Under the pieces are notes generated by a model that was given only the letters and a program-made list of their open reading frames with translations, ran no database searches and was not told the origin of the DNA. Both the position numbers and the translations under genes were made by a program. Positions 1,526-8,665 of a stretch of DNA of 64,000 bases are shown here, piece by piece. Source of the DNA: Naegleria gruberi (taxonomy: Eukaryota); assembly GCA_000004985.1 (NCBI GenBank), contig GG738910.1, one strand, 5' to 3'. The stretch's first letter is position 1. The number at the start of each line of letters is the position of its first letter.

Positions 1526-4444
1526 ATGTTTTCTTTTCAGAGGTGCCTCTCTCCATCCTCATCAAACAACGGATCTGCAAGTGGCAGTTTTGTGAGGTGT
1601 GCTGAGACTTTGGAATTTATTCATAATAATTATAGAAAAGTAAAAAACACATCTTCCGGCCAGGAATCAAATACTCAGCCTTTTATTAATAATATTCAAA
1701 ATGTTGCTGGTCATTTTGCATTACATTTGTTTGGTGGTAAATTAATTATTGGTCTTGATAATATTCCTTTTTCGAGGCAAAATAATTCATCACAATTATA
1801 TTCTACGTTAATAGATTTATTTCAAACAAAAGATTTTTCAATATTTAATCAAAATCAACCACTTTCTCCCATGCTATGTTGTTATGACAAGGATGGATTC
1901 ATATATTCGGGATTTGAAATTAAAGAAGAGGTATCGGAACAATCTAGTGGATATAACTTTGGTTCTAGTTTTATTAAAGATTTGACCGTAGTAAGATTTA
2001 TCACGATCAATAGAAGTGGACAAGTAATTATTTGGAGATACCATGAAGATAGTACTGCATGGAAGGTTGAAAACATTTTTAATTTAATTGGAGGAAGTAC
2101 AAGTGTAAAAATTGAATATGCAACCGTACTAAGTTCATCAAGAACAATTATCTACAGGACGAGCAGTTCCCTAAATGGATCTGAAAATATTTTAAACATG
2201 CATTCTACTAACCATGGGAATTCATCATTCGTTTTTAGTAGAAGTAGACAAGAGGATAACCTCTTACATATTATTGAGTCTAAAAATTCTACAAATACTA
2301 CCAACATTCTAATAATTACAAAATCGAATATTTATTTATTTGATATTAAAAATAAGAAAGAAGTTTCACACTTAAAGAATATCAAGAAATTTTCTGAGAA
2401 TGAGAAGATAGACCCATCTATTATTTATTACTTATCCATAATAATTCATCCAATCACGAAAGAAGTAATTATTCTTGATTCTACATTTACAGTTTCTATT
2501 TATTCACACGATTTGAAAATTCACAAGAAATTAAACATCAAGGTGAATCAAAATTGTAAAAATTTGAATAGGGTACAAACATGTCTAATCCATAACACTT
2601 TCCTAGCATTTTATGACTCAAGCAGCAACATGTCTATTTATGATTTATTTAGTGGGTGTTTGATTTCAACAGTTATGATACCAAGTGACTTTACATTTGG
2701 AGAAAACTCCACAGTCACCTTGCTTGGAAATGGTTGCTTGAATTTAACTATTGAACAATCATTTACACTGTATTTATATGGTAAATCTCTTATTTATGAG
2801 CTGAAGTGTCCCCCATTGACTGAAATAATCAAGGCTAGCTCATTAACATCTAATTCTAGTCATAGCTATAATCACTTGCTGAAAGAATTCAAATTATTTC
2901 ATATTTACTGTAAAAATATAACCGAAGATATGCACAACAGCCCTAATAAGGTTACTGCAAATGTCAAGCAGTCTATTTCCCATCATTTAGAAAATCCATC
3001 TCTAGTTTGGACTTCTTGCACCACACTCCTTGAACAATCTAATAACTTAAATGATTCCGACCAATTTATTGATAACTATCCACCAATTAATACCTCTTTT
3101 TGGAAAAATAGAGTTGATAATCAGCAAAACTCAAGTAATACTCATAACTCATCTTCCTCTAATCAATCATTCAGTAGATTGACTCCATTGAATATGAGTT
3201 TAGTTCCTCCTCTTTATCAATCTTCATCTATTTGTAAAGATCAAATTTCAAATTTGGATATTTTAAAAGATTTTTCTAAATCACCAACACAATTAGAAGA
3301 TGAAATTGATTTTGATAATCTGACAGATATCGAGCTGTATGATCTGATTGAGACCAATCCATCCAAACTTTTATTACATTTGTTCAAAATTTGTGACTTG
3401 AATGAATTGAAAGCTATACTTGATAAAGGTACTACCAATGTAGATGCACCTAATATTTATGGATTACAATTGCCCTCTATGGAAAGTATGAAACCAATTA
3501 CAACTTTGATGAATTTCTATGAACAAAATTATGAAGAGAATATCAATCCACTTGATCTTTATAGAGTTGAGGAGAATAGAAATGAAGACTATGTAGTTTA
3601 CCAAAATAAGGTGTTTAACGCTTTGGAGCCAAAGAGAAATGCCAACCACACACGAAAGGGACTATTGTACATTGAAATATTGATCAAGACATTATTCTTC
3701 CATTGTGATTGCCCTCAAATAATTTTAATTCTAATCATAATGATGGAGGATTACAAATTAAAAGAATTGAATATTAGAAGGGAGCAATTGAAACAAGAAA
3801 TCGAGAACATCTCAAAGAAAAAATCACCTAATACTGCATCCTCATCAAATTTGACAACTACAACCAAAAACTATCAAATGGAACAATTCAATTTACAAAA
3901 TCTTCAAACGGAATATCAAGAGATTAATACAAAGCTGAAAAATAGTCTAAAACAAAAGTACAGTAAGGAAATTCAGAACATTATTGACTTCTCTCAAGAA
4001 GTAATGACACCACTCTCAGAAATGCAATTAAAAACACTTGCTCAACTCTATTTGTGGCAAGGTGAAAAATTGCATGCCCTTAGACTCTACATTGCACACA
4101 ATATAGAGGAACAAATCATCAAATTAATATCCTCCTACTATCTCAATCAACAAGGCAGTTTCCCAATTGAGGAGCAATATCAACTGTTGAATTTGCTCTT
4201 TGAGTACTGTCTCTCTGTGAAATGTTCTCCAACAGCAAAGGAAACACTCCTATCATATGCTTGGCAATTGATGCCACTCTCATACAGTGTTTTTGATTTC
4301 TTTTCCAAATACAGATCCGAGAGAATATTATCGGATAGTAATGGCAAAGTTTTTACCTCAGATGACGAAACAGTTGGTCAATATCTACAAGGATTACAAT
4401 CTTTCACCAACATGAAATTAAAGCTTGCCACACAAATGAAATAA
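1526..4444 (+). CDS. large (972 aa) Asn/Ser-rich hypothetical protein; possible beta-propeller N-half and alpha-solenoid C-half, function unknown
   Basis: Uninterrupted ORF from a real ATG at 1526, only 33 bp from the divergent start of the methyltransferase gene. Rare codons (TCG, CGG, ACG) suggest low expression. I recognised no diagnostic motif. Confidence 0.45.
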   Translation: MFSFQRCLSPSSSNNGSASGSFVRCAETLEFIHNNYRKVKNTSSGQESNTQPFINNIQNVAGHFALHLFGGKLIIGLDNIPFSRQNNSSQLYSTLIDLFQTKDFSIFNQNQPLSPMLCCYDKDGFIYSGFEIKEEVSEQSSGYNFGSSFIKDLTVVRFITINRSGQVIIWRYHEDSTAWKVENIFNLIGGSTSVKIEYATVLSSSRTIIYRTSSSLNGSENILNMHSTNHGNSSFVFSRSRQEDNLLHIIESKNSTNTTNILIITKSNIYLFDIKNKKEVSHLKNIKKFSENEKIDPSIIYYLSIIIHPITKEVIILDSTFTVSIYSHDLKIHKKLNIKVNQNCKNLNRVQTCLIHNTFLAFYDSSSNMSIYDLFSGCLISTVMIPSDFTFGENSTVTLLGNGCLNLTIEQSFTLYLYGKSLIYELKCPPLTEIIKASSLTSNSSHSYNHLLKEFKLFHIYCKNITEDMHNSPNKVTANVKQSISHHLENPSLVWTSCTTLLEQSNNLNDSDQFIDNYPPINTSFWKNRVDNQQNSSNTHNSSSSNQSFSRLTPLNMSLVPPLYQSSSICKDQISNLDILKDFSKSPTQLEDEIDFDNLTDIELYDLIETNPSKLLLHLFKICDLNELKAILDKGTTNVDAPNIYGLQLPSMESMKPITTLMNFYEQNYEENINPLDLYRVEENRNEDYVVYQNKVFNALEPKRNANHTRKGLLYIEILIKTLFFHCDCPQIILILIIMMEDYKLKELNIRREQLKQEIENISKKKSPNTASSSNLTTTTKNYQMEQFNLQNLQTEYQEINTKLKNSLKQKYSKEIQNIIDFSQEVMTPLSEMQLKTLAQLYLWQGEKLHALRLYIAHNIEEQIIKLISSYYLNQQGSFPIEEQYQLLNLLFEYCLSVKCSPTAKETLLSYAWQLMPLSYSVFDFFSKYRSERILSDSNGKVFTSDDETVGQYLQGLQSFTNMKLKLATQMK

Positions 4445-4627
4445 AACATTGAGGTGATGATGAATTAACTAAGACAATCTTTATCATCACCTTGTTCAAT
4501 TTTTTTAATTGGAAGTTTCATTGCCGCCAACGGTGCACTTCGGTTTGCGAAGAAACAACTTGCGCTTGTAATATGGCTTGTTAGATGTTGGTCAGGTATT
4601 GAAAAAAAATTCCTCATCATCTTTAAC

Positions 4628-6307
4628 ATGTCTGTTCGTGAATTTTCTCCACTCTTCAGTTGGGGTTTTTCTCTTCGTCGTTCCAAGTGGTTGATTCCAC
4701 TCTTTAATAATAACGTCTTTAGTTTCGGTACAAGTGCTGTGAATGATGGACCATATGGATACAAAAAGAGTAACAATAACCGTAGAGAAAAATCAACTAG
4801 TACAATTAATCATAAGGAGTCACACACAATGCTCAAAACAAAAGTAGAAGGAAGTGATTTGTTTGAAACGTAGGTATCTTGTTTTCTTTTTTATTAATTA
4901 TGTAGTCCTATTCAAGTTGTGACTGAGATCGGTAACAATACCTGCTCTGTCAGAATTACTCACGAAGATAGTGAAGATATCAAACAAAAGGAATTAGAAC
5001 AAAGGAGAAGAGAACAAGAAGAAATTAAACGAAAGGAACTTGAAAGATACAGACAATTATCGGATGGAGCTATCATTGATTTGATTGAAGGTGGTAAGCT
5101 TGCCATTTACAACCTGGAAGATAAACTTGGTGACAAGAAACGTGCTGTAAAAATTCGTAGAATGTTCCTTGCATCAAAAATTAATCCACAAGATGAAAAT
5201 CTTCTTGATAACCTTCCATATGCTCATGATTTAAATTACGACCAAGTTTTTGGAGCTTGTTGTGAAAGCGTTGTCGGATATGTTCCATTGCCAGTCGGTA
5301 TTGTTGGTCCAATTATTATTGATGGAAAGCCATATCATATTCCAATGGCTACTGTTGAAGGATGTTTGGTTGCCAGTACTCACAGAGGTTGCAAGGCCCT
5401 TTCCAGTTCTTTTGAAGGAGGTGTAAACAGCGTCATTTTGAGCGACGGAATGACTAGAGGTCCAGTTGTTCAATTTGCCAACACAAAGAGATGTAACGAG
5501 CTTAAACAATTCATTGATAATCCAGAAAATTTCAAGGAATTATGTAGAGTTTTTAACAGTGATTCTCGTTTTGCTAGATTGTTGGAAGTTAAAGTTGGTA
5601 TTGCTGGTAGAAAGGCATTCTTGAGATTCAAGTGCCGAACTGGTGATGCTATGGGAATGAACATGATTTCAAAAGCAACACAAAAGGCTCTTAAATTCTT
5701 GAAGAATGAACACTTCCAAGATATGGACATTTTAAGTTTGAGTGGTAACTATTGTACAGATAAGAAGCCATCAGCAATGAATTGGATTGAAGGTAGAGGT
5801 AAATCCGTTGTTGTTGATGCTACCATTCCAAAGGATGTTGTGAAGAATGTTCTTAAGACTACAGTTGATGAAATTGTCAGTCTCAATATATCTAAGAATT
5901 TAATTGGTAGTGCTATGGCTGGTTCTGTTGGTGGTTTCAACGCTCATGCTGCCAATATCGTGACAGCAATCTTTTTGGCTACTGGTCAAGATGCTGCCCA
6001 AAATGTGGAAAGCTCGAATTGTATGACTATTATGGAAAAGACTGATAATGGTGATTTATATGTCTCTGTGACAATGCCATCTATTGAAGTAGGTACAGTT
6101 GGTGGTGGTACTCACTTGGATGCTCAAAAGACTTGTTTGAAGATTATTGGTGTTGCTGGTGCAAACCAAGAAAATCCAGGTCAAAATGCTCAAACCCTTG
6201 CCAAATGTGTTGCTAGTACTGTAATGGCTGGAGAACTTTCTCTCATGGCTGCTCTTGCTGCTGATCACTTGGTGTCTGCTCATATTGCTCACAACAGAAA
6301 GAAATAA
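4628..6307 (+). CDS. hmgr: HMG-CoA reductase (class I catalytic domain) with a short non-membrane N-terminus; model join(4628..4869,4906..6307), 36-nt intron GTAGGT..TGTAG
   Basis: The catalytic-domain ORF 4919..6307 starts at GTG. The upstream ORF 4628..4873 (real ATG) ends at a stop that lies inside GTAGGT. Splicing to TAG|TCC at 4905/4906 restores the frame. Conserved HMGR blocks seen: CCESVVGYVPLPVG, MATVEGCLVAST, DAMGMNM, GTVGGGT. There is no room for a sterol-sensing membrane domain between 4444 and 4628. Confidence 0.8.
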
Positions 6308-6584
6308 TCAATTCCAAAATTTTGTAACAACAATAAATCCTAATTATTAATTAAAATACGAGTAAACATGTTGTATCCATTAGAAGATAAAGTATTAATG
6401 TGAAGATAGAAAATCCAGCAGAGAGTATGTTTAATTTGGCTTTTTGTTGATTTTTATTCACCAATATCCAAAAAATAACCTATTCCCAAATACAATAACC
6501 CTCATTCTCTAAATGATTTTCGCCCAATAGTGATTCTTCATCTTAATATTTTTGAATGTGATTTTTTAACCAATTCTCAATAGT

Positions 6585-8154
6585 ATTAGTAAAGATAAGA
6601 AAAAAATTAGGAGATTCGAATAGGTATATAATTTTTGTAGGACTACACTACAAATCTAGGGTGAAAAATAGCTTTTTAGCTTGGTCAATAGAATTTTCGC
6701 TGGAGGAATGGATCCACTTGACAAATTGTCGACCGCTCTCTATGGTTTTGAGATTGTTCCAAGTTCGCTATTTTCAAAACTCTTGCAAAATTAATGTAGT
6801 GTAGTTGACAATTTGAGCAACAGGCAAAGTTGATTCATTAACAATATCTCAATCCTTGAGCTTTTAATGTGTTTGTTTTAATTAATATATATTTTATTAT
6901 TTTGTGAATTTAAAAACATGTTGTTTTCCAAAACCACTATTTTATCTCAGTAAACCTCGATAGGAACATAAATTGTTGAAAAATGATTATGATGATACAA
7001 CTGACCTTTTTTTGATTACTCATATTACACGTTTTCAAATTCAAATTCAGTCTGTAAAGTTATAAGACAACTCTGTAAAATAATTTCATTTCAATTACAG
7101 ACCACTGTTATAAAGGGTCTACTGGATTAACAATAATTGAAACCTTCTTTAATAGCTGATCCAATTCTAAAACTACGTCAATTCCATTGTGATCGGAAAT
7201 ATTATAAATCCAATTAATTATCATTTAAAAATGTTTCCTCATATTCAATCAGAATTCAACATTACAATTCTTTTTTTCTAAATAATTCTAAACAGTCAAA
7301 CACATAACGGTTATTTTATTGGGATTTTGTTTAACAATGAATATTCATTTCCTATATGAAAACTACAATAACAATACCAATTTCAAATTAAGTTATCTAA
7401 ATCAAGTATGTTGTATTCTTTTTAGCAAATTTTAATATTCTTTCATATCACTAGATCGTTTCTGATCTTCCTTTTGATCTCTAATATCATTAAGCACCTC
7501 ACTACATTCTTTATCTTTCCGTCTTATCCTTGTGGATCTTATCAGTCATGGTGTTCTTGATGGTGTTTATATTATCTGAAGTAGAAATACTGGTAGAACT
7601 AACCGAATCATCTAATTGGCTTTTGTTATATTCATGCAATGAATGAGATGATGGTGATAAAAGTGGTTCTACTGTATCATTGTCATCATCTTCATCACTT
7701 TCAGCATAAAACGTCTCTTGTACTTCTTTAAAATCAGTAGAGGTAAAGTATTAAGACAGAAACGTAGAACATTTGATCATTTCAAACACTTTCTTATCAA
7801 CTACCTTAAAGGTTGTAGATTAAATCTATTTCAGTATCAAACAAACACCGCATTAGCCTGATAACTTTAGATTAATAAGGTCTTCCTATTGTATTAAATT
7901 TTTCCTTTTTTTGTTTCTTCTTTTTGTTTGTTACATTGTAAATTAATAAAAACAAGATTGAGAATAAGTAATTATACTAATGGATATTAAAGCTCAAAGA
8001 CTGTTTCATCTTTAAGGTGATTCAGCACTGAGAACTGCTTTAACGGATATAAATCTTTATTAGCAGGTCCCGAGATTAATAAATATGGCTCTTATAAAAA
8101 AACTTATCAATAGTATTAGTAAAGATAAGAAAAAAATTAAGAGATGCGAATAGG
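6585..8154. repeat. pair of ~48-bp direct repeats (tcaatagtattagtaaagataagaaaaaaatta[g/a]gagat[t/g]cgaatagg) ~1.5 kb apart inside a gene-free stretch (coordinates approximate +/-3)
   Basis: The same 48-mer with 2 mismatches occurs at ~6585-6632 and ~8107-8154. A short inverted repeat (ggactacactacaaat / atgtagtgtagttg) lies nearby at ~6641 and ~6793. Confidence 0.5.
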
Positions 8155-8665
8155 ACGGTCTAAACATAGCTCCCCAAAGCTTTACGAAAATAATAAAAGG
8201 AATTATGGTCTTTATTTACATAAACGACATCCTTTTAGTGGAAATTTGTTCAATTTGGTACTAGAAAATCTCCGAACGTTAATAACAGACTTAAAATTCC
8301 TTAGATGGCTTCTTCAAGGGAAATCAGTTCTAATTCCAACTCAAACTATTCAGTTTCTGGGCATCCTCTTCGATTTAGAAAATGGGAAAATTCTAATTCC
8401 AGAAGACAAGAAAGTAATAGCTATGGATATCATGGACAAACTAATCTTAGCAGAATCTCAAAGATCTCTGTTAAACTTAAGATTCGTCGCCAAATTCATA
8501 GGAAAAATGGAGTTCCTAGCATTAGCAGAACCAGCAATCATGTCATTCCTAGACAGATTAAGAAAGCAAATGTGTAATCGGGTGGAAATGAAAGGATGGA
8601 ATGGCATAATGATGATAAATCGTGGTCCTAGGAAAGATTTATGTTTCCTCAAAGAAATCTGGTAA
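8144..8665 (+). mobile_element. degenerate retroelement fragment: ORF resembling the thumb/connection region of an LTR-retrotransposon/DIRS-type reverse transcriptase
   Basis: 173-aa ORF with the spacing pattern FLG-x-x-F-(8)-I-(20)-RFVAKFIGKMEF-LALAEPAIMSFLDRLRK, similar to the gypsy/BEL RT thumb (FLG...SFLGL.NYYRRFI..F..IA.PL..LLKK). It has no ATG and sits in a 4.3-kb region without host genes. It starts immediately after the second direct repeat. Confidence 0.35.

What the first reader, a model, noticed from the sequence alone, without database searches (positions are those of the whole stretch)
4628..6307. HMG-CoA reductase lacking the sterol-sensing membrane domain
The catalytic domain is complete. 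Only 183 bp separate the preceding gene's stop (4444) from the HMGR ATG (4628). The spliced N-terminus is about 90 residues with no multi-helix membrane domain. That is typical of a few protist HMGRs, not of canonical fungal or animal enzymes. It has implications for sterol-regulated degradation and is a lineage clue.
Basis: partly seen in the sequence, partly recalled or inferred. Interest (0 to 1): 0.5.

Follow-up and report, generated by a model that had tools for sequence, protein, structure and literature searches.

The report
Naegleria HMG-CoA reductase without membrane domain
This is the already annotated HMG-CoA reductase gene of the amoeba Naegleria gruberi, which has no sterol-sensing or transmembrane domain; its short first exon instead encodes a 40-residue N-terminal motif, conserved across distant protist groups, whose function is unknown.

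Summary
Exons 4628-4869 and 4906-6307, joined across a 36-nt GT..AG intron, give a 547-aa protein. It is 100% identical to RefSeq XP_002670914.1, "HMG-CoA reductase [Naegleria gruberi]". The class I catalytic domain is complete (PF00368 1-368/368, E 3.7e-140; catalytic E232, K367, D443, H540). No sterol-sensing domain and no hydrophobic helix precede it. Upstream membrane exons are effectively excluded. So the gene and its short architecture are already known.

1. Residues 1-38 are not a nondescript leader. They form a conserved box (invariant M1, W12, G13, F14, P24, G34). It is as conserved as the catalytic core (66% vs 64% identity), while the linker is at 7%. I found it only at HMGR N-termini, in Heterolobosea, a jakobid, a malawimonad, an apusomonad and Amoebozoa.

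2. Short HMGRs without a sterol-sensing domain are common among protists, not rare.

3. [quoted passage not shown]

My best reading is an enzyme without transmembrane helices, tethered or targeted through the box and a flexible linker and associated with mitochondria. Regulation through a sterol-sensing domain is not possible. What the box does is inferred, not shown.

The parts
4628..4869 (+). Exon 1 of the HMGR gene (codons 1-80 plus 2 nt of codon 81).
   Evidence: The spliced product is identical to XP_002670914.1. The first 47 codons show 26 synonymous and 0 non-synonymous differences against N. fowleri.
4628..4741 (+). N-terminal conserved box, aa 1-38: MSVREFSPLFSWGFSLRRSKWLIPLFNNNVFSFGTSAV. 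Invariant residues are M1, W12, G13, F14, P24 and G34.
   Evidence: Alignments A1 and A2. Mean identity to distant taxa is 66%, against 7% for the linker and 64% for the core. An HMM search of 1.84 billion representative proteins found it only at HMGR N-termini. It is the lowest Wimley-White interfacial free-energy window of the protein, -7.5 kcal/mol for aa 6-34.
4870..4905 (+). 36-nt GT..AG intron, phase 2.
   Evidence: Intron retention gives in-frame stops. N. fowleri and Willaertia have one intron at the same position (sequences). The length surplus over the coding sequence is 128 nt in N. fowleri, 119 nt in N. lovaniensis and 52 nt in Willaertia.
4742..4972 (+). Variable, basic, Ser/Thr/Asn-rich linker, aa 39-103 (interrupted by the intron). 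It contains RREKST, which resembles a mitochondrial processing site.
   Evidence: AlphaFold2 pLDDT is about 30 for aa 1-101. Identity to homologues is 7%. The first 75 residues carry a net charge of +7 with few acidic residues.
4973..5053 (+). Charged helix, aa 104-130, in front of the catalytic portion.
   Evidence: AlphaFold2 predicts helix 104-130, with 10-residue block means of pLDDT 66-85.
5144..6298 (+). Class I HMG-CoA reductase catalytic domain (PF00368). Catalytic residues: E232 (5357-5359), K367 (5762-5764), D443 (5990-5992), H540 (6281-6283).
   Evidence: Pfam 1-368/368, E 3.7e-140. PDB 1DQ8 E 4.3e-154. Catalytic residues checked and invariant in alignment A2.
4906..6307 (+). Exon 2, with the TAA stop at 6305-6307.
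1526..4444 (+). Upstream neighbouring gene on the same strand (972-aa open reading frame, no Pfam match). It bounds the HMGR gene on the 5' side.
   Evidence: It is not syntenic with the neighbours of the N. fowleri and N. lovaniensis HMGR genes.
4527..4554 (+). Conserved GC-rich upstream element CCAACGGTGCACTTCGGTTTGCGAAGAA, containing the inverted repeat CTTCG-N5-CGAAG, 100 nt before the ATG. Candidate cis-regulatory element or 5'UTR element.
   Evidence: Local alignments find it upstream of the HMGR ATG in N. fowleri (-219) and N. lovaniensis (-232). It is unique in the window, with 0 matches expected by chance.

Best explanation
Window 4628-6307 is the Naegleria gruberi HMG-CoA reductase gene (XP_002670914.1). 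It has two exons and encodes a 547-aa class I, NADPH-dependent, statin-type enzyme.

The architecture is: a conserved 38-40-residue N-terminal box, then about 65 disordered, basic and hydroxyl-rich residues, then a charged helix, then a complete catalytic domain. There is no sterol-sensing domain and no transmembrane helix.

Two consequences follow. Sterol-accelerated degradation of the Insig / sterol-sensing-domain kind cannot act on this enzyme. The C-terminal AMPK serine of animal enzymes is also absent (K546).

Shown here:
- the gene model and the intact catalytic machinery;
- the absence of membrane helices;
- purifying selection on exon 1;
- the breadth of the box across taxa and its restriction to HMGR.

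Taken from the literature: in N. gruberi the protein co-fractionates with mitochondria, as does an HMG-CoA synthase whose N-terminus looks like a mitochondrial presequence.

Inferred: the aromatic and basic box, held on a flexible linker where other eukaryotes have a membrane domain, acts as the tether. It would attach to a membrane interface or to a conserved partner. In Discoba and malawimonads the presequence-like stretch that follows it would direct the enzyme to mitochondria. The first committed step of isoprenoid and ergosterol synthesis would then run at or in the mitochondrion, as in trypanosomatids.
For: - Gene identity: 100% identical to the RefSeq protein.
- Catalytic domain: PF00368 over its full length; PDB class I hits at E 1e-148 to 1e-154, against about 1e-5 for the weakly matching bacterial-type entries; E232, K367, D443 and H540 present.
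- No membrane segment: the maximum Kyte-Doolittle 19-residue score in aa 1-130 is 0.61. Precomputed Pfam shows PF00368 only, whereas animal relatives also carry PF12349 and PF02460.
- Start codon and exon 1: 26 synonymous and 0 non-synonymous codon differences against N. fowleri; in-frame stops upstream in N. fowleri and Willaertia; the intron sits at the same place.
- Box conservation and specificity.
- Taxa carrying the box: Naegleria (three species), Willaertia, Acrasis, Heterolobosea sp. BB2, Pharyngomonas, Andalucia, Gefionella, Thecamonas, dictyostelids, Cavostelium, Clastostelium, Soliformovum, Gocevia, Vermistella and Acanthamoeba.
- Tether reading: the box is the most interface-seeking stretch of the protein (-7.5 kcal/mol; mean -5.6 across 43 homologues). 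The linker is disordered. In dictyostelid hmgA the box directly follows a single transmembrane helix.
- Mitochondria: Horvathova et al. 2021 (PMC8134430), Supplementary Data 2, Sheet 1, lists the putative mitochondrial proteome of 946 proteins. It includes XP_002670914.1 with 19 unique peptides and 46.8% coverage, abundance rising along the gradient in parallel with other proteins in the list, TargetP mitochondrial score 66 and MultiLoc 95. It also includes HMG-CoA synthase XP_002683507.1, whose N-terminus looks like a presequence.
- The first 75 residues carry net charge +7 with few acidic residues, and contain a conserved RREKST / QRFKSS / RRFKTT site that resembles the RF(S/Q)(S/T) endings of the box-less, presequence-type relatives.
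- Trypanosomatid HMGR is in the mitochondrial matrix (PMC5993337).
Against: - The mitochondrial assignment rests on gradient co-fractionation with PCA clustering. It is not microscopy or protease protection. ER or contact-site proteins can contaminate such clusters, and PSORT II favoured the cytosol.
- In Dictyostelium the box-type paralogue HMGR1 was not recovered from mitochondria, whereas the presequence-type HMGR2 was (PMC9118663). The box therefore cannot be a mitochondrial signal in itself.
- Ordinary presequences are not conserved at 66% identity across supergroups.
- AlphaFold2 gives no confident structure for the box, either within the full protein (pLDDT about 30) or alone (pLDDT 57).
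- The helical hydrophobic moment is unremarkable (at most 0.53).
- Nothing here tests membrane binding, processing or regulation.
- I could not test whether N. gruberi has a second HMGR.
Confidence: 0.8

Rival explanations
1. The box plus the basic stretch after it is one long cleavable presequence. The mature enzyme would be a soluble matrix protein, exactly as in trypanosomatids, and the box would be absent from the working enzyme.
For: The protein is in the N. gruberi mitochondrial cluster, with TargetP 66 and MultiLoc 95. The first 75 residues carry net charge +7. RREKST / QRFKSS sites resembling an MPP (mitochondrial processing peptidase) R-2 site lie 15-25 residues after the box in Discoba and malawimonad sequences. 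Within the heterolobosean clade, some close relatives carry an ordinary presequence-like N-terminus in place of the box (P0032, P0022, P0027). HMG-CoA synthase has a presequence-like N-terminus.
Against: A disposable presequence should not be as conserved as the active site, nor restricted to one enzyme family. Amoebozoan and apusomonad box proteins have acidic residues (GEEAV) right after the box and no MPP-like site. Dictyostelid hmgA places the box behind a transmembrane helix and was not found in mitochondria. The conserved acidic residue at position 5 is unusual for a presequence.
Confidence: 0.25
2. The box is a regulatory module, such as a degron, a product sensor or a partner-binding motif, that controls enzyme level or activity. 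It would be a functional stand-in for the sterol-sensing domain, and localisation would be secondary.
For: The conservation is strict and specific to HMGR. Invariant Trp-Gly-Phe, Pro and Gly suggest a specific bound conformation rather than generic hydrophobicity. The box is kept both in a mitochondrion-associated form (Naegleria) and in a probably ER-located form (Dictyostelium). It is disordered on its own, as binding motifs usually are.
Against: No partner is known and no comparable motif occurs in any other protein. There are no data on turnover or feedback in these organisms. This reading is compatible with the tether reading rather than exclusive of it.
Confidence: 0.2
3. The gene model is truncated: further upstream exons encode a multi-helix membrane domain, or exon 1 is not coding and translation starts at a later methionine.
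For: In N. gruberi the 52 codons in frame upstream of the ATG happen to be open and partly hydrophobic. A 36-nt intron is very short.
Against: That upstream stretch has no ATG, and it is closed by stop codons in N. fowleri and Willaertia. About 40 homologues, including 'complete' transcriptome ORFs, start at the same Met. There are 26 synonymous and 0 non-synonymous differences in codons 1-47. Another gene ends 183 bp upstream. The next in-frame Met inside exon 2 would remove part of the conserved N-domain.
Confidence: 0.02

Closest known systems
Trypanosomatid HMG-CoA reductase (T. cruzi, T. brucei, Leishmania): soluble, in the mitochondrial matrix
   Same: A class I catalytic domain with no sterol-sensing domain or transmembrane helices. 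Both lineages belong to Discoba. Both are associated with mitochondria (PMC5993337; PMC8134430).
   Different: From my own recollection, trypanosomatid enzymes have a short ordinary leader directly before the catalytic portion; I did not examine their sequences here. The Naegleria enzyme has about 130 extra residues, including the conserved box. Matrix localisation has not been shown for Naegleria.
Dictyostelid HMGR1 / hmgA and related amoebozoan enzymes of the box type
   Same: The same N-terminal box (55% identity over aa 1-38 between D. purpureum and N. gruberi), the same order of box, variable linker and catalytic domain, and a similar length of about 500-580 aa.
   Different: Dictyostelids add one transmembrane helix in front of the box and have acidic residues after it. 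D. discoideum HMGR1 was not found in mitochondria and is predicted to carry a signal peptide. A second, presequence-type paralogue, HMGR2, is the mitochondrial one. Only one HMGR appeared for Naegleria in my searches.
Canonical animal and fungal ER HMG-CoA reductase (human HMGCR, yeast Hmg1/2)
   Same: The catalytic portion is similar along its whole length (E 4.3e-154 to the human structure). The catalytic residues and statin-binding fold are the same, and the general layout is anchor, flexible linker, catalytic domain.
   Different: There is no 8-helix membrane domain and no sterol-sensing domain (PF12349 absent). Insig-dependent degradation therefore cannot apply. The AMPK serine is replaced by Lys.
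Plant HMGR (two transmembrane helices, no sterol-sensing domain)
   Same: A short N-terminal region without a sterol-sensing domain, followed by a variable linker and the catalytic domain (P0016, P0017).
   Different: Plants have hydrophobic helices that Naegleria lacks. The box HMM does not match the plant N-termini. A faint resemblance I noticed between plant LPLPLYLTN and the box's LIPLFNNN is not statistically supported.

Membership tests
Class I (eukaryote/archaeal type) HMG-CoA reductase, PF00368 | Full-length match to the catalytic-domain profile | tested here: met
   PF00368 1-368/368, 467.6 bits against a cut-off of 27.
Class I (eukaryote/archaeal type) HMG-CoA reductase, PF00368 | Catalytic Glu, Lys, Asp and His (human E559, K691, D767, H866) | tested here: met
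   E232, K367, D443 and H540 lie in conserved contexts (alignment) and are invariant in 43 homologues.
Class I (eukaryote/archaeal type) HMG-CoA reductase, PF00368 | Closer to class I than to class II (bacterial) enzymes | tested here: met
   Human and Arabidopsis-type structures score E 1e-148 to 1e-154 and an archaeal class I enzyme 2.7e-85. The remaining, weakly matching entries score about 1e-5.
Class I (eukaryote/archaeal type) HMG-CoA reductase, PF00368 | NADPH-dependent reduction of HMG-CoA to mevalonate; inhibition by statins | not testable with these tools
   Only indirect: papers report statin activity against N. fowleri (titles listed). The N. fowleri orthologue falls in the same 90%-identity cluster.
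Canonical ER HMGR with a sterol-sensing membrane domain (animals, fungi) | N-terminal sterol-sensing domain (PF12349 / PF02460) | tested here: not met
   No Pfam hit in aa 1-160. Precomputed domains show PF00368 only, whereas animal hits also carry PF12349 and PF02460.
Canonical ER HMGR with a sterol-sensing membrane domain (animals, fungi) | Six to eight transmembrane helices before the linker | tested here: not met
   The maximum Kyte-Doolittle 19-residue score in aa 1-130 is 0.61. Most animal sequences in the same test give 5-6 hydrophobic segments. DeepTMHMM was not available.
Canonical ER HMGR with a sterol-sensing membrane domain (animals, fungi) | C-terminal AMPK phosphorylation serine (human S872) | tested here: not met
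   The aligned residue is K546 (HNRKK).
Trypanosomatid-type soluble mitochondrial HMGR | No membrane-spanning segment | tested here: met
Trypanosomatid-type soluble mitochondrial HMGR | Located in the mitochondrial matrix | tested here: inconclusive
   [quoted passage not shown] The sub-organellar location is unknown.
Trypanosomatid-type soluble mitochondrial HMGR | Short ordinary leader directly before the catalytic portion | tested here: not met
   About 130 residues with a conserved box, a linker and a helix precede the catalytic portion. The trypanosomatid comparison itself rests on my own knowledge.
Box-type HMGR (informal group defined here; includes dictyostelid hmgA) | N-terminal M-S-[VIL]-R-x-x-x-P-x-[FY]-x-W-G-F ... 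P ... N-N ... G box at residue 1, followed by a variable linker | tested here: met
   This sequence is the first row of the defining alignment A1. 67 of the 146 HMGR-family sequences and fragments held at that point match the box HMM at 20 bits or more. The group is my own construct, not a curated family.

The most novel reading that the evidence does not exclude
The 38-40-residue N-terminal box would be an unrecognised module, specific to HMGR, that dates back to the last eukaryotic common ancestor or close to it. It occurs in Discoba, malawimonads, apusomonads and Amoebozoa.

On this reading the box tethers or regulates an HMGR that has no transmembrane helices. It would be the ancestral alternative to the opisthokont sterol-sensing domain.

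Four observations point the same way: Naegleria HMGR and HMG-CoA synthase in the mitochondrial fraction, mitochondrial HMGRs in trypanosomatids, an HMGR detected by mass spectrometry in Acanthamoeba mitochondria, and Dictyostelium HMGR2. Together they would mean that the entry steps of the mevalonate pathway were ancestrally associated with mitochondria, and that the ER-embedded, sterol-sensing enzyme is a later invention.
Probability: 0.3. Interest if true: 0.65.

Novelty: already known. Interest (0 to 1): 0.35.

Why it matters
As stated, the finding matters little. The gene has a RefSeq annotation, its product has been detected by mass spectrometry, and Naegleria HMGR is already treated as a statin target.

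Three points do have value.

1. A reminder for drug work. The Naegleria enzyme lacks every known handle of sterol feedback: the sterol-sensing domain, Insig-type degradation and the AMPK serine. It also probably works at mitochondria. Its regulation and its substrate supply may therefore differ from the host's.

2. The conserved N-terminal box. It is as constrained as the active site in lineages that span much of eukaryotic diversity, yet it has no Pfam model. I found no mention of it in about 8 million full texts searched for its sequence strings. It is a well-defined, cheap experimental target: peptide binding, box-GFP fusions and point mutants in Dictyostelium or Naegleria.

3. Where the mevalonate pathway starts. 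A 2018 paper still states that every eukaryote other than trypanosomatids anchors HMGR in the ER (PMC5993337). The sequences and proteomes gathered here show that this is too narrow.

Tried and rejected
- Word-indexed protein search with the 42-column box alignment: 23 candidates, none scored. A query this short against 5.8 billion sequences is a limit of the method. The exhaustive HMM search replaced it.
- Two hits of that HMM search (P0128, a 959-aa repeat protein, and P0141) are low-complexity repeats, not boxes.
- Exact look-up of the encoding contig for P0001: not on record. Orthologue loci from N. fowleri, N. lovaniensis and Willaertia were used instead.
- MAFFT alignment of the upstream regions misaligned the conserved element. 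Local pairwise alignment found it.
- The in-frame hydrophobic stretch upstream of the ATG in N. gruberi was considered as a hidden transmembrane helix, by analogy with dictyostelids. Rejected: it has no ATG and is closed by stops in N. fowleri and Willaertia.
- AlphaFold2 on the full protein (box pLDDT about 30) and on the box alone (pLDDT 57, a weak helix at 23-38): no usable structure and no predicted docking onto the catalytic domain.
- Amphipathic-helix test: hydrophobic moment at most 0.53, unremarkable. An alternating pattern F10-W12-F14-L16 hints at a strand, but this is unsupported.
- PTS2 and the mitochondrial beta-signal consensus were compared by eye and do not fit. CRAC/CARC-type motifs are too loose to count.
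- Neighbour-joining tree of 122 catalytic domains: the heterolobosean clade is supported (94%), but the backbone is unresolved (bootstraps below 50). It cannot say whether box-type enzymes are monophyletic or ancestral.
- Rfam scan of 4300-5000: only sub-threshold chance hits. The bacterial promoter/terminator scan does not apply to a eukaryote and found nothing.
- Pfam on the 173-aa ORF at 8144-8665: no family.
- Literature searches for accession numbers and box strings in main texts: none. The proteomics evidence was found only in a supplement.
- Genome Biology review PMC545772: not held.
Full report
**What is in the sequence**

The window is AT-rich (about 30-39% G+C) and eukaryotic. An ATG at 4628 opens an 81-codon ORF. 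A second ORF, 4919-6307, carries the HMG-CoA reductase homology.

Joining 4628-4869 to 4906-6307 across a 36-nt GTAGGT...ATGTAG intron gives a 547-aa product. Leaving the intron in would put a stop codon in frame.

**Catalytic domain**

- PF00368 matches from end to end (1-368/368, E 3.7e-140).
- The best solved relatives are the human catalytic portion (1DQ8, E 4.3e-154) and other class I enzymes. The remaining, bacterial-type entries match only at about 1e-5.
- The catalytic residues corresponding to human E559, K691, D767 and H866 are E232, K367, D443 and H540. They are invariant in 43 homologues.
- The position of the AMPK serine of animal enzymes holds Lys (HNRKK).
- AlphaFold2 models residues 104-547 with good confidence.

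**No membrane domain, and no hidden one**

- No 19-residue Kyte-Doolittle window in residues 1-130 exceeds 0.61. The only windows at or above 1.6 lie inside the soluble catalytic fold.
- In the same crude test most animal relatives give 5-6 hydrophobic segments and plants give 1-3.
- Pfam finds nothing in the N-terminal part. The precomputed domains show PF00368 alone, whereas animal hits also carry PF12349 and PF02460.

- The N. fowleri, N. lovaniensis and Willaertia magna genes start at the same Met. N. fowleri and Willaertia have in-frame stops just upstream of it.
- N. fowleri and Willaertia have one intron at the same place. The length surplus over the coding sequence is 128 nt in N. fowleri, 119 nt in N. 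lovaniensis and 52 nt in Willaertia.
- About 40 relatives, including transcriptome ORFs marked complete, begin exactly at MSVRE.
- The first 47 codons show 26 synonymous and 0 non-synonymous differences between N. gruberi and N. fowleri.

In N. gruberi the 52 codons upstream happen to be open and partly hydrophobic. They contain no ATG and are not conserved.

**The N-terminus is a conserved box**

Residues 1-38 read MSVREFSPLFSWGFSLRRSKWLIPLFNNNVFSFGTSAV. Almost the same sequence recurs in many lineages, with M1, W12, G13, F14, P24 and G34 invariant:

- Heterolobosea: three Naegleria species, Willaertia, Acrasis, strain BB2, Pharyngomonas
- the jakobid Andalucia godoyi
- the malawimonad Gefionella okellyi
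- the apusomonad Thecamonas trahens
- many Amoebozoa: dictyostelid hmgA, Cavostelium, Clastostelium, Soliformovum, Gocevia, Vermistella, and one Acanthamoeba paralogue

Against taxa outside Naegleria and Willaertia, mean identity to N. gruberi differs sharply by region:

| Region | Mean identity |
|---|---|
| Box (aa 1-38) | 66% |
| Linker (aa 39-130) | 7% |
| N-domain (aa 131-196) | 39% |
| Catalytic core (aa 197-545) | 64% |

An HMM of the box searched against 1.84 billion representative proteins found only HMGR N-termini, plus two low-complexity false positives. Pfam has no model for it. A text search for its sequence strings in about 8 million papers found nothing.

**What the box might do**

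The layout is box, then about 65 disordered residues, then a charged helix, then the catalytic domain. This mirrors the anchor, linker, catalytic-domain plan of membrane-bound HMGRs.

- The box is the most interface-seeking stretch of the protein on the Wimley-White scale: -7.5 kcal/mol for residues 6-34, and a mean of -5.6 over 43 homologues.
- In dictyostelid hmgA the box lies directly after a single conserved transmembrane helix whose positively charged flank faces the box.
- AlphaFold2 gives no confident fold for it, either in context or alone. Its helical amphipathicity is ordinary.
- The region after the box splits by lineage. It is basic, poor in acidic residues and carries an RREKST / QRFKSS / RRFKTT site in Discoba and malawimonads. 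It is acidic (GEEAV...) in Amoebozoa and Thecamonas.

**Localisation evidence from the literature**

- *N. gruberi.* Horvathova et al. 2021 (PMC8134430) fractionated N. gruberi organelles. Their Supplementary Data 2, Sheet 1, gives the putative mitochondrial proteome of 946 proteins. It lists XP_002670914.1 with 19 unique peptides, 46.8% coverage and abundance rising along the gradient in parallel with other proteins in the list; TargetP gave 66 and MultiLoc 95 for mitochondria, while PSORT II favoured the cytosol. The same sheet lists HMG-CoA synthase XP_002683507.1, whose N-terminus looks like a presequence.
- *Trypanosomatids.* Their HMGR is in the mitochondrial matrix, and that paper describes this as unique among eukaryotes (PMC5993337).
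- *Dictyostelium discoideum.* HMGR2 (presequence type) is in the mitochondrial compendium. HMGR1 (box type with a transmembrane helix) was not recovered and is predicted to carry a signal peptide (PMC9118663).
- *Andalucia and Acanthamoeba.* The Andalucia enzyme was labelled mitochondrial through homology to an HMGR found by mass spectrometry in Acanthamoeba mitochondria, with a low targeting score of its own, 35 (PMC7050145 supplement).
- *Other relatives.* Many box-less short relatives in my hit list have ordinary presequence-like N-termini. Some of these sit inside the heterolobosean clade.

**Interpretation**

The gene encodes a class I HMGR without transmembrane helices. Control through a sterol-sensing domain and Insig cannot apply to it.

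The best-supported reading is that the enzyme is held at mitochondria through its N-terminal region. In that reading the box is a specific tether or regulatory element, and in Discoba the basic stretch after it supplies presequence-like character.

The main rival is that box and basic stretch together are a cleaved matrix presequence. That fits the proteomics. It fits poorly with active-site-level conservation, with the restriction of the box to HMGR, and with the Dictyostelium data. A purely regulatory role is also open. The function of the box remains inference.

**Phylogeny**

A neighbour-joining tree of 122 catalytic domains places the sequence in a supported heterolobosean clade (94% bootstrap). 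The backbone is unresolved, so it cannot decide whether the box is ancestral. The occurrence of the box in Discoba, malawimonads, apusomonads and Amoebozoa is what suggests great age.

**Verdict**

The object is an annotated, published gene, and short HMGRs without a sterol-sensing domain are a known and, among protists, common state. The finding as given is therefore already known and of modest interest.

The lead worth keeping is the conserved N-terminal box, which appears not to have been described. The wider picture of mitochondrion-associated HMGRs beyond trypanosomatids also deserves note.

Noticed in passing
window 4527-4554 (also L001, about -219 from the ATG; L003, about -232): A GC-rich island, CCAACGGTGCACTTCGGTTTGCGAAGAA, sits in AT-rich intergenic DNA and contains the inverted repeat CTTCG-N5-CGAAG. 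It is conserved upstream of the HMGR start codon in N. gruberi, N. fowleri and N. lovaniensis, is unique in the window and matches no Rfam family. It could be a cis-regulatory site or a 5'UTR hairpin of the HMGR gene.
   Followed up: partly
window 1526-4444 and 6308-8143; L001, L003: The neighbours of HMGR are not syntenic between Naegleria species. N. gruberi has a 972-aa ORF of unknown function upstream on the same strand, and about 1.8 kb without ORFs of 50 aa or more downstream. N. fowleri and N. lovaniensis have a large gene on the opposite strand upstream (with DOCK and RasGEF domains in N. fowleri) and an approximately 840-aa gene 125-145 bp downstream. No cross-matches were found by tblastx or tblastn.
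   Followed up: partly
window 4472-4627: The 52 codons in frame upstream of the HMGR ATG are free of stop codons and partly hydrophobic (…LALVIWLVRCW…). There is no ATG, and N. fowleri and Willaertia have stop codons there. I judge this to be chance, not a hidden transmembrane helix.
   Followed up: yes
related proteins P0025/P0147 and P0049 (Acanthamoeba); P0108/P0109 and P0111/P0116 (dictyostelids): Amoebozoa carry two HMGR paralogues with different N-termini: a box type (with an extra transmembrane helix in dictyostelids) and an ordinary mitochondrial-presequence type. The annotated Acanthamoeba box-type model XP_004337403.1 (428 aa) is much shorter than the 540-aa members of its 90%-identity cluster, which carry the box, so it is probably truncated at the 5' end.
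   Followed up: partly
related proteins P0032, P0022, P0027 (environmental, within the heterolobosean clade): Close relatives of box-type heterolobosean HMGRs have a classical presequence-like N-terminus in place of the box, ending in RF(K/Q)(S/T)(S/T). This resembles the RREKST / QRFKSS site that follows the box in box-type proteins.
   Followed up: no
window 8144-8665: A 173-aa ORF overlaps other short ORFs, and I suspected a mobile-element remnant. It has no Pfam match.
   Followed up: partly
window 4870-4905: The single intron is only 36 nt here. The length surplus over the coding sequence is 128 nt in N. fowleri, 119 nt in N. lovaniensis and 52 nt in Willaertia, and the N. fowleri and Willaertia introns sit at the same position.
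   Followed up: yes
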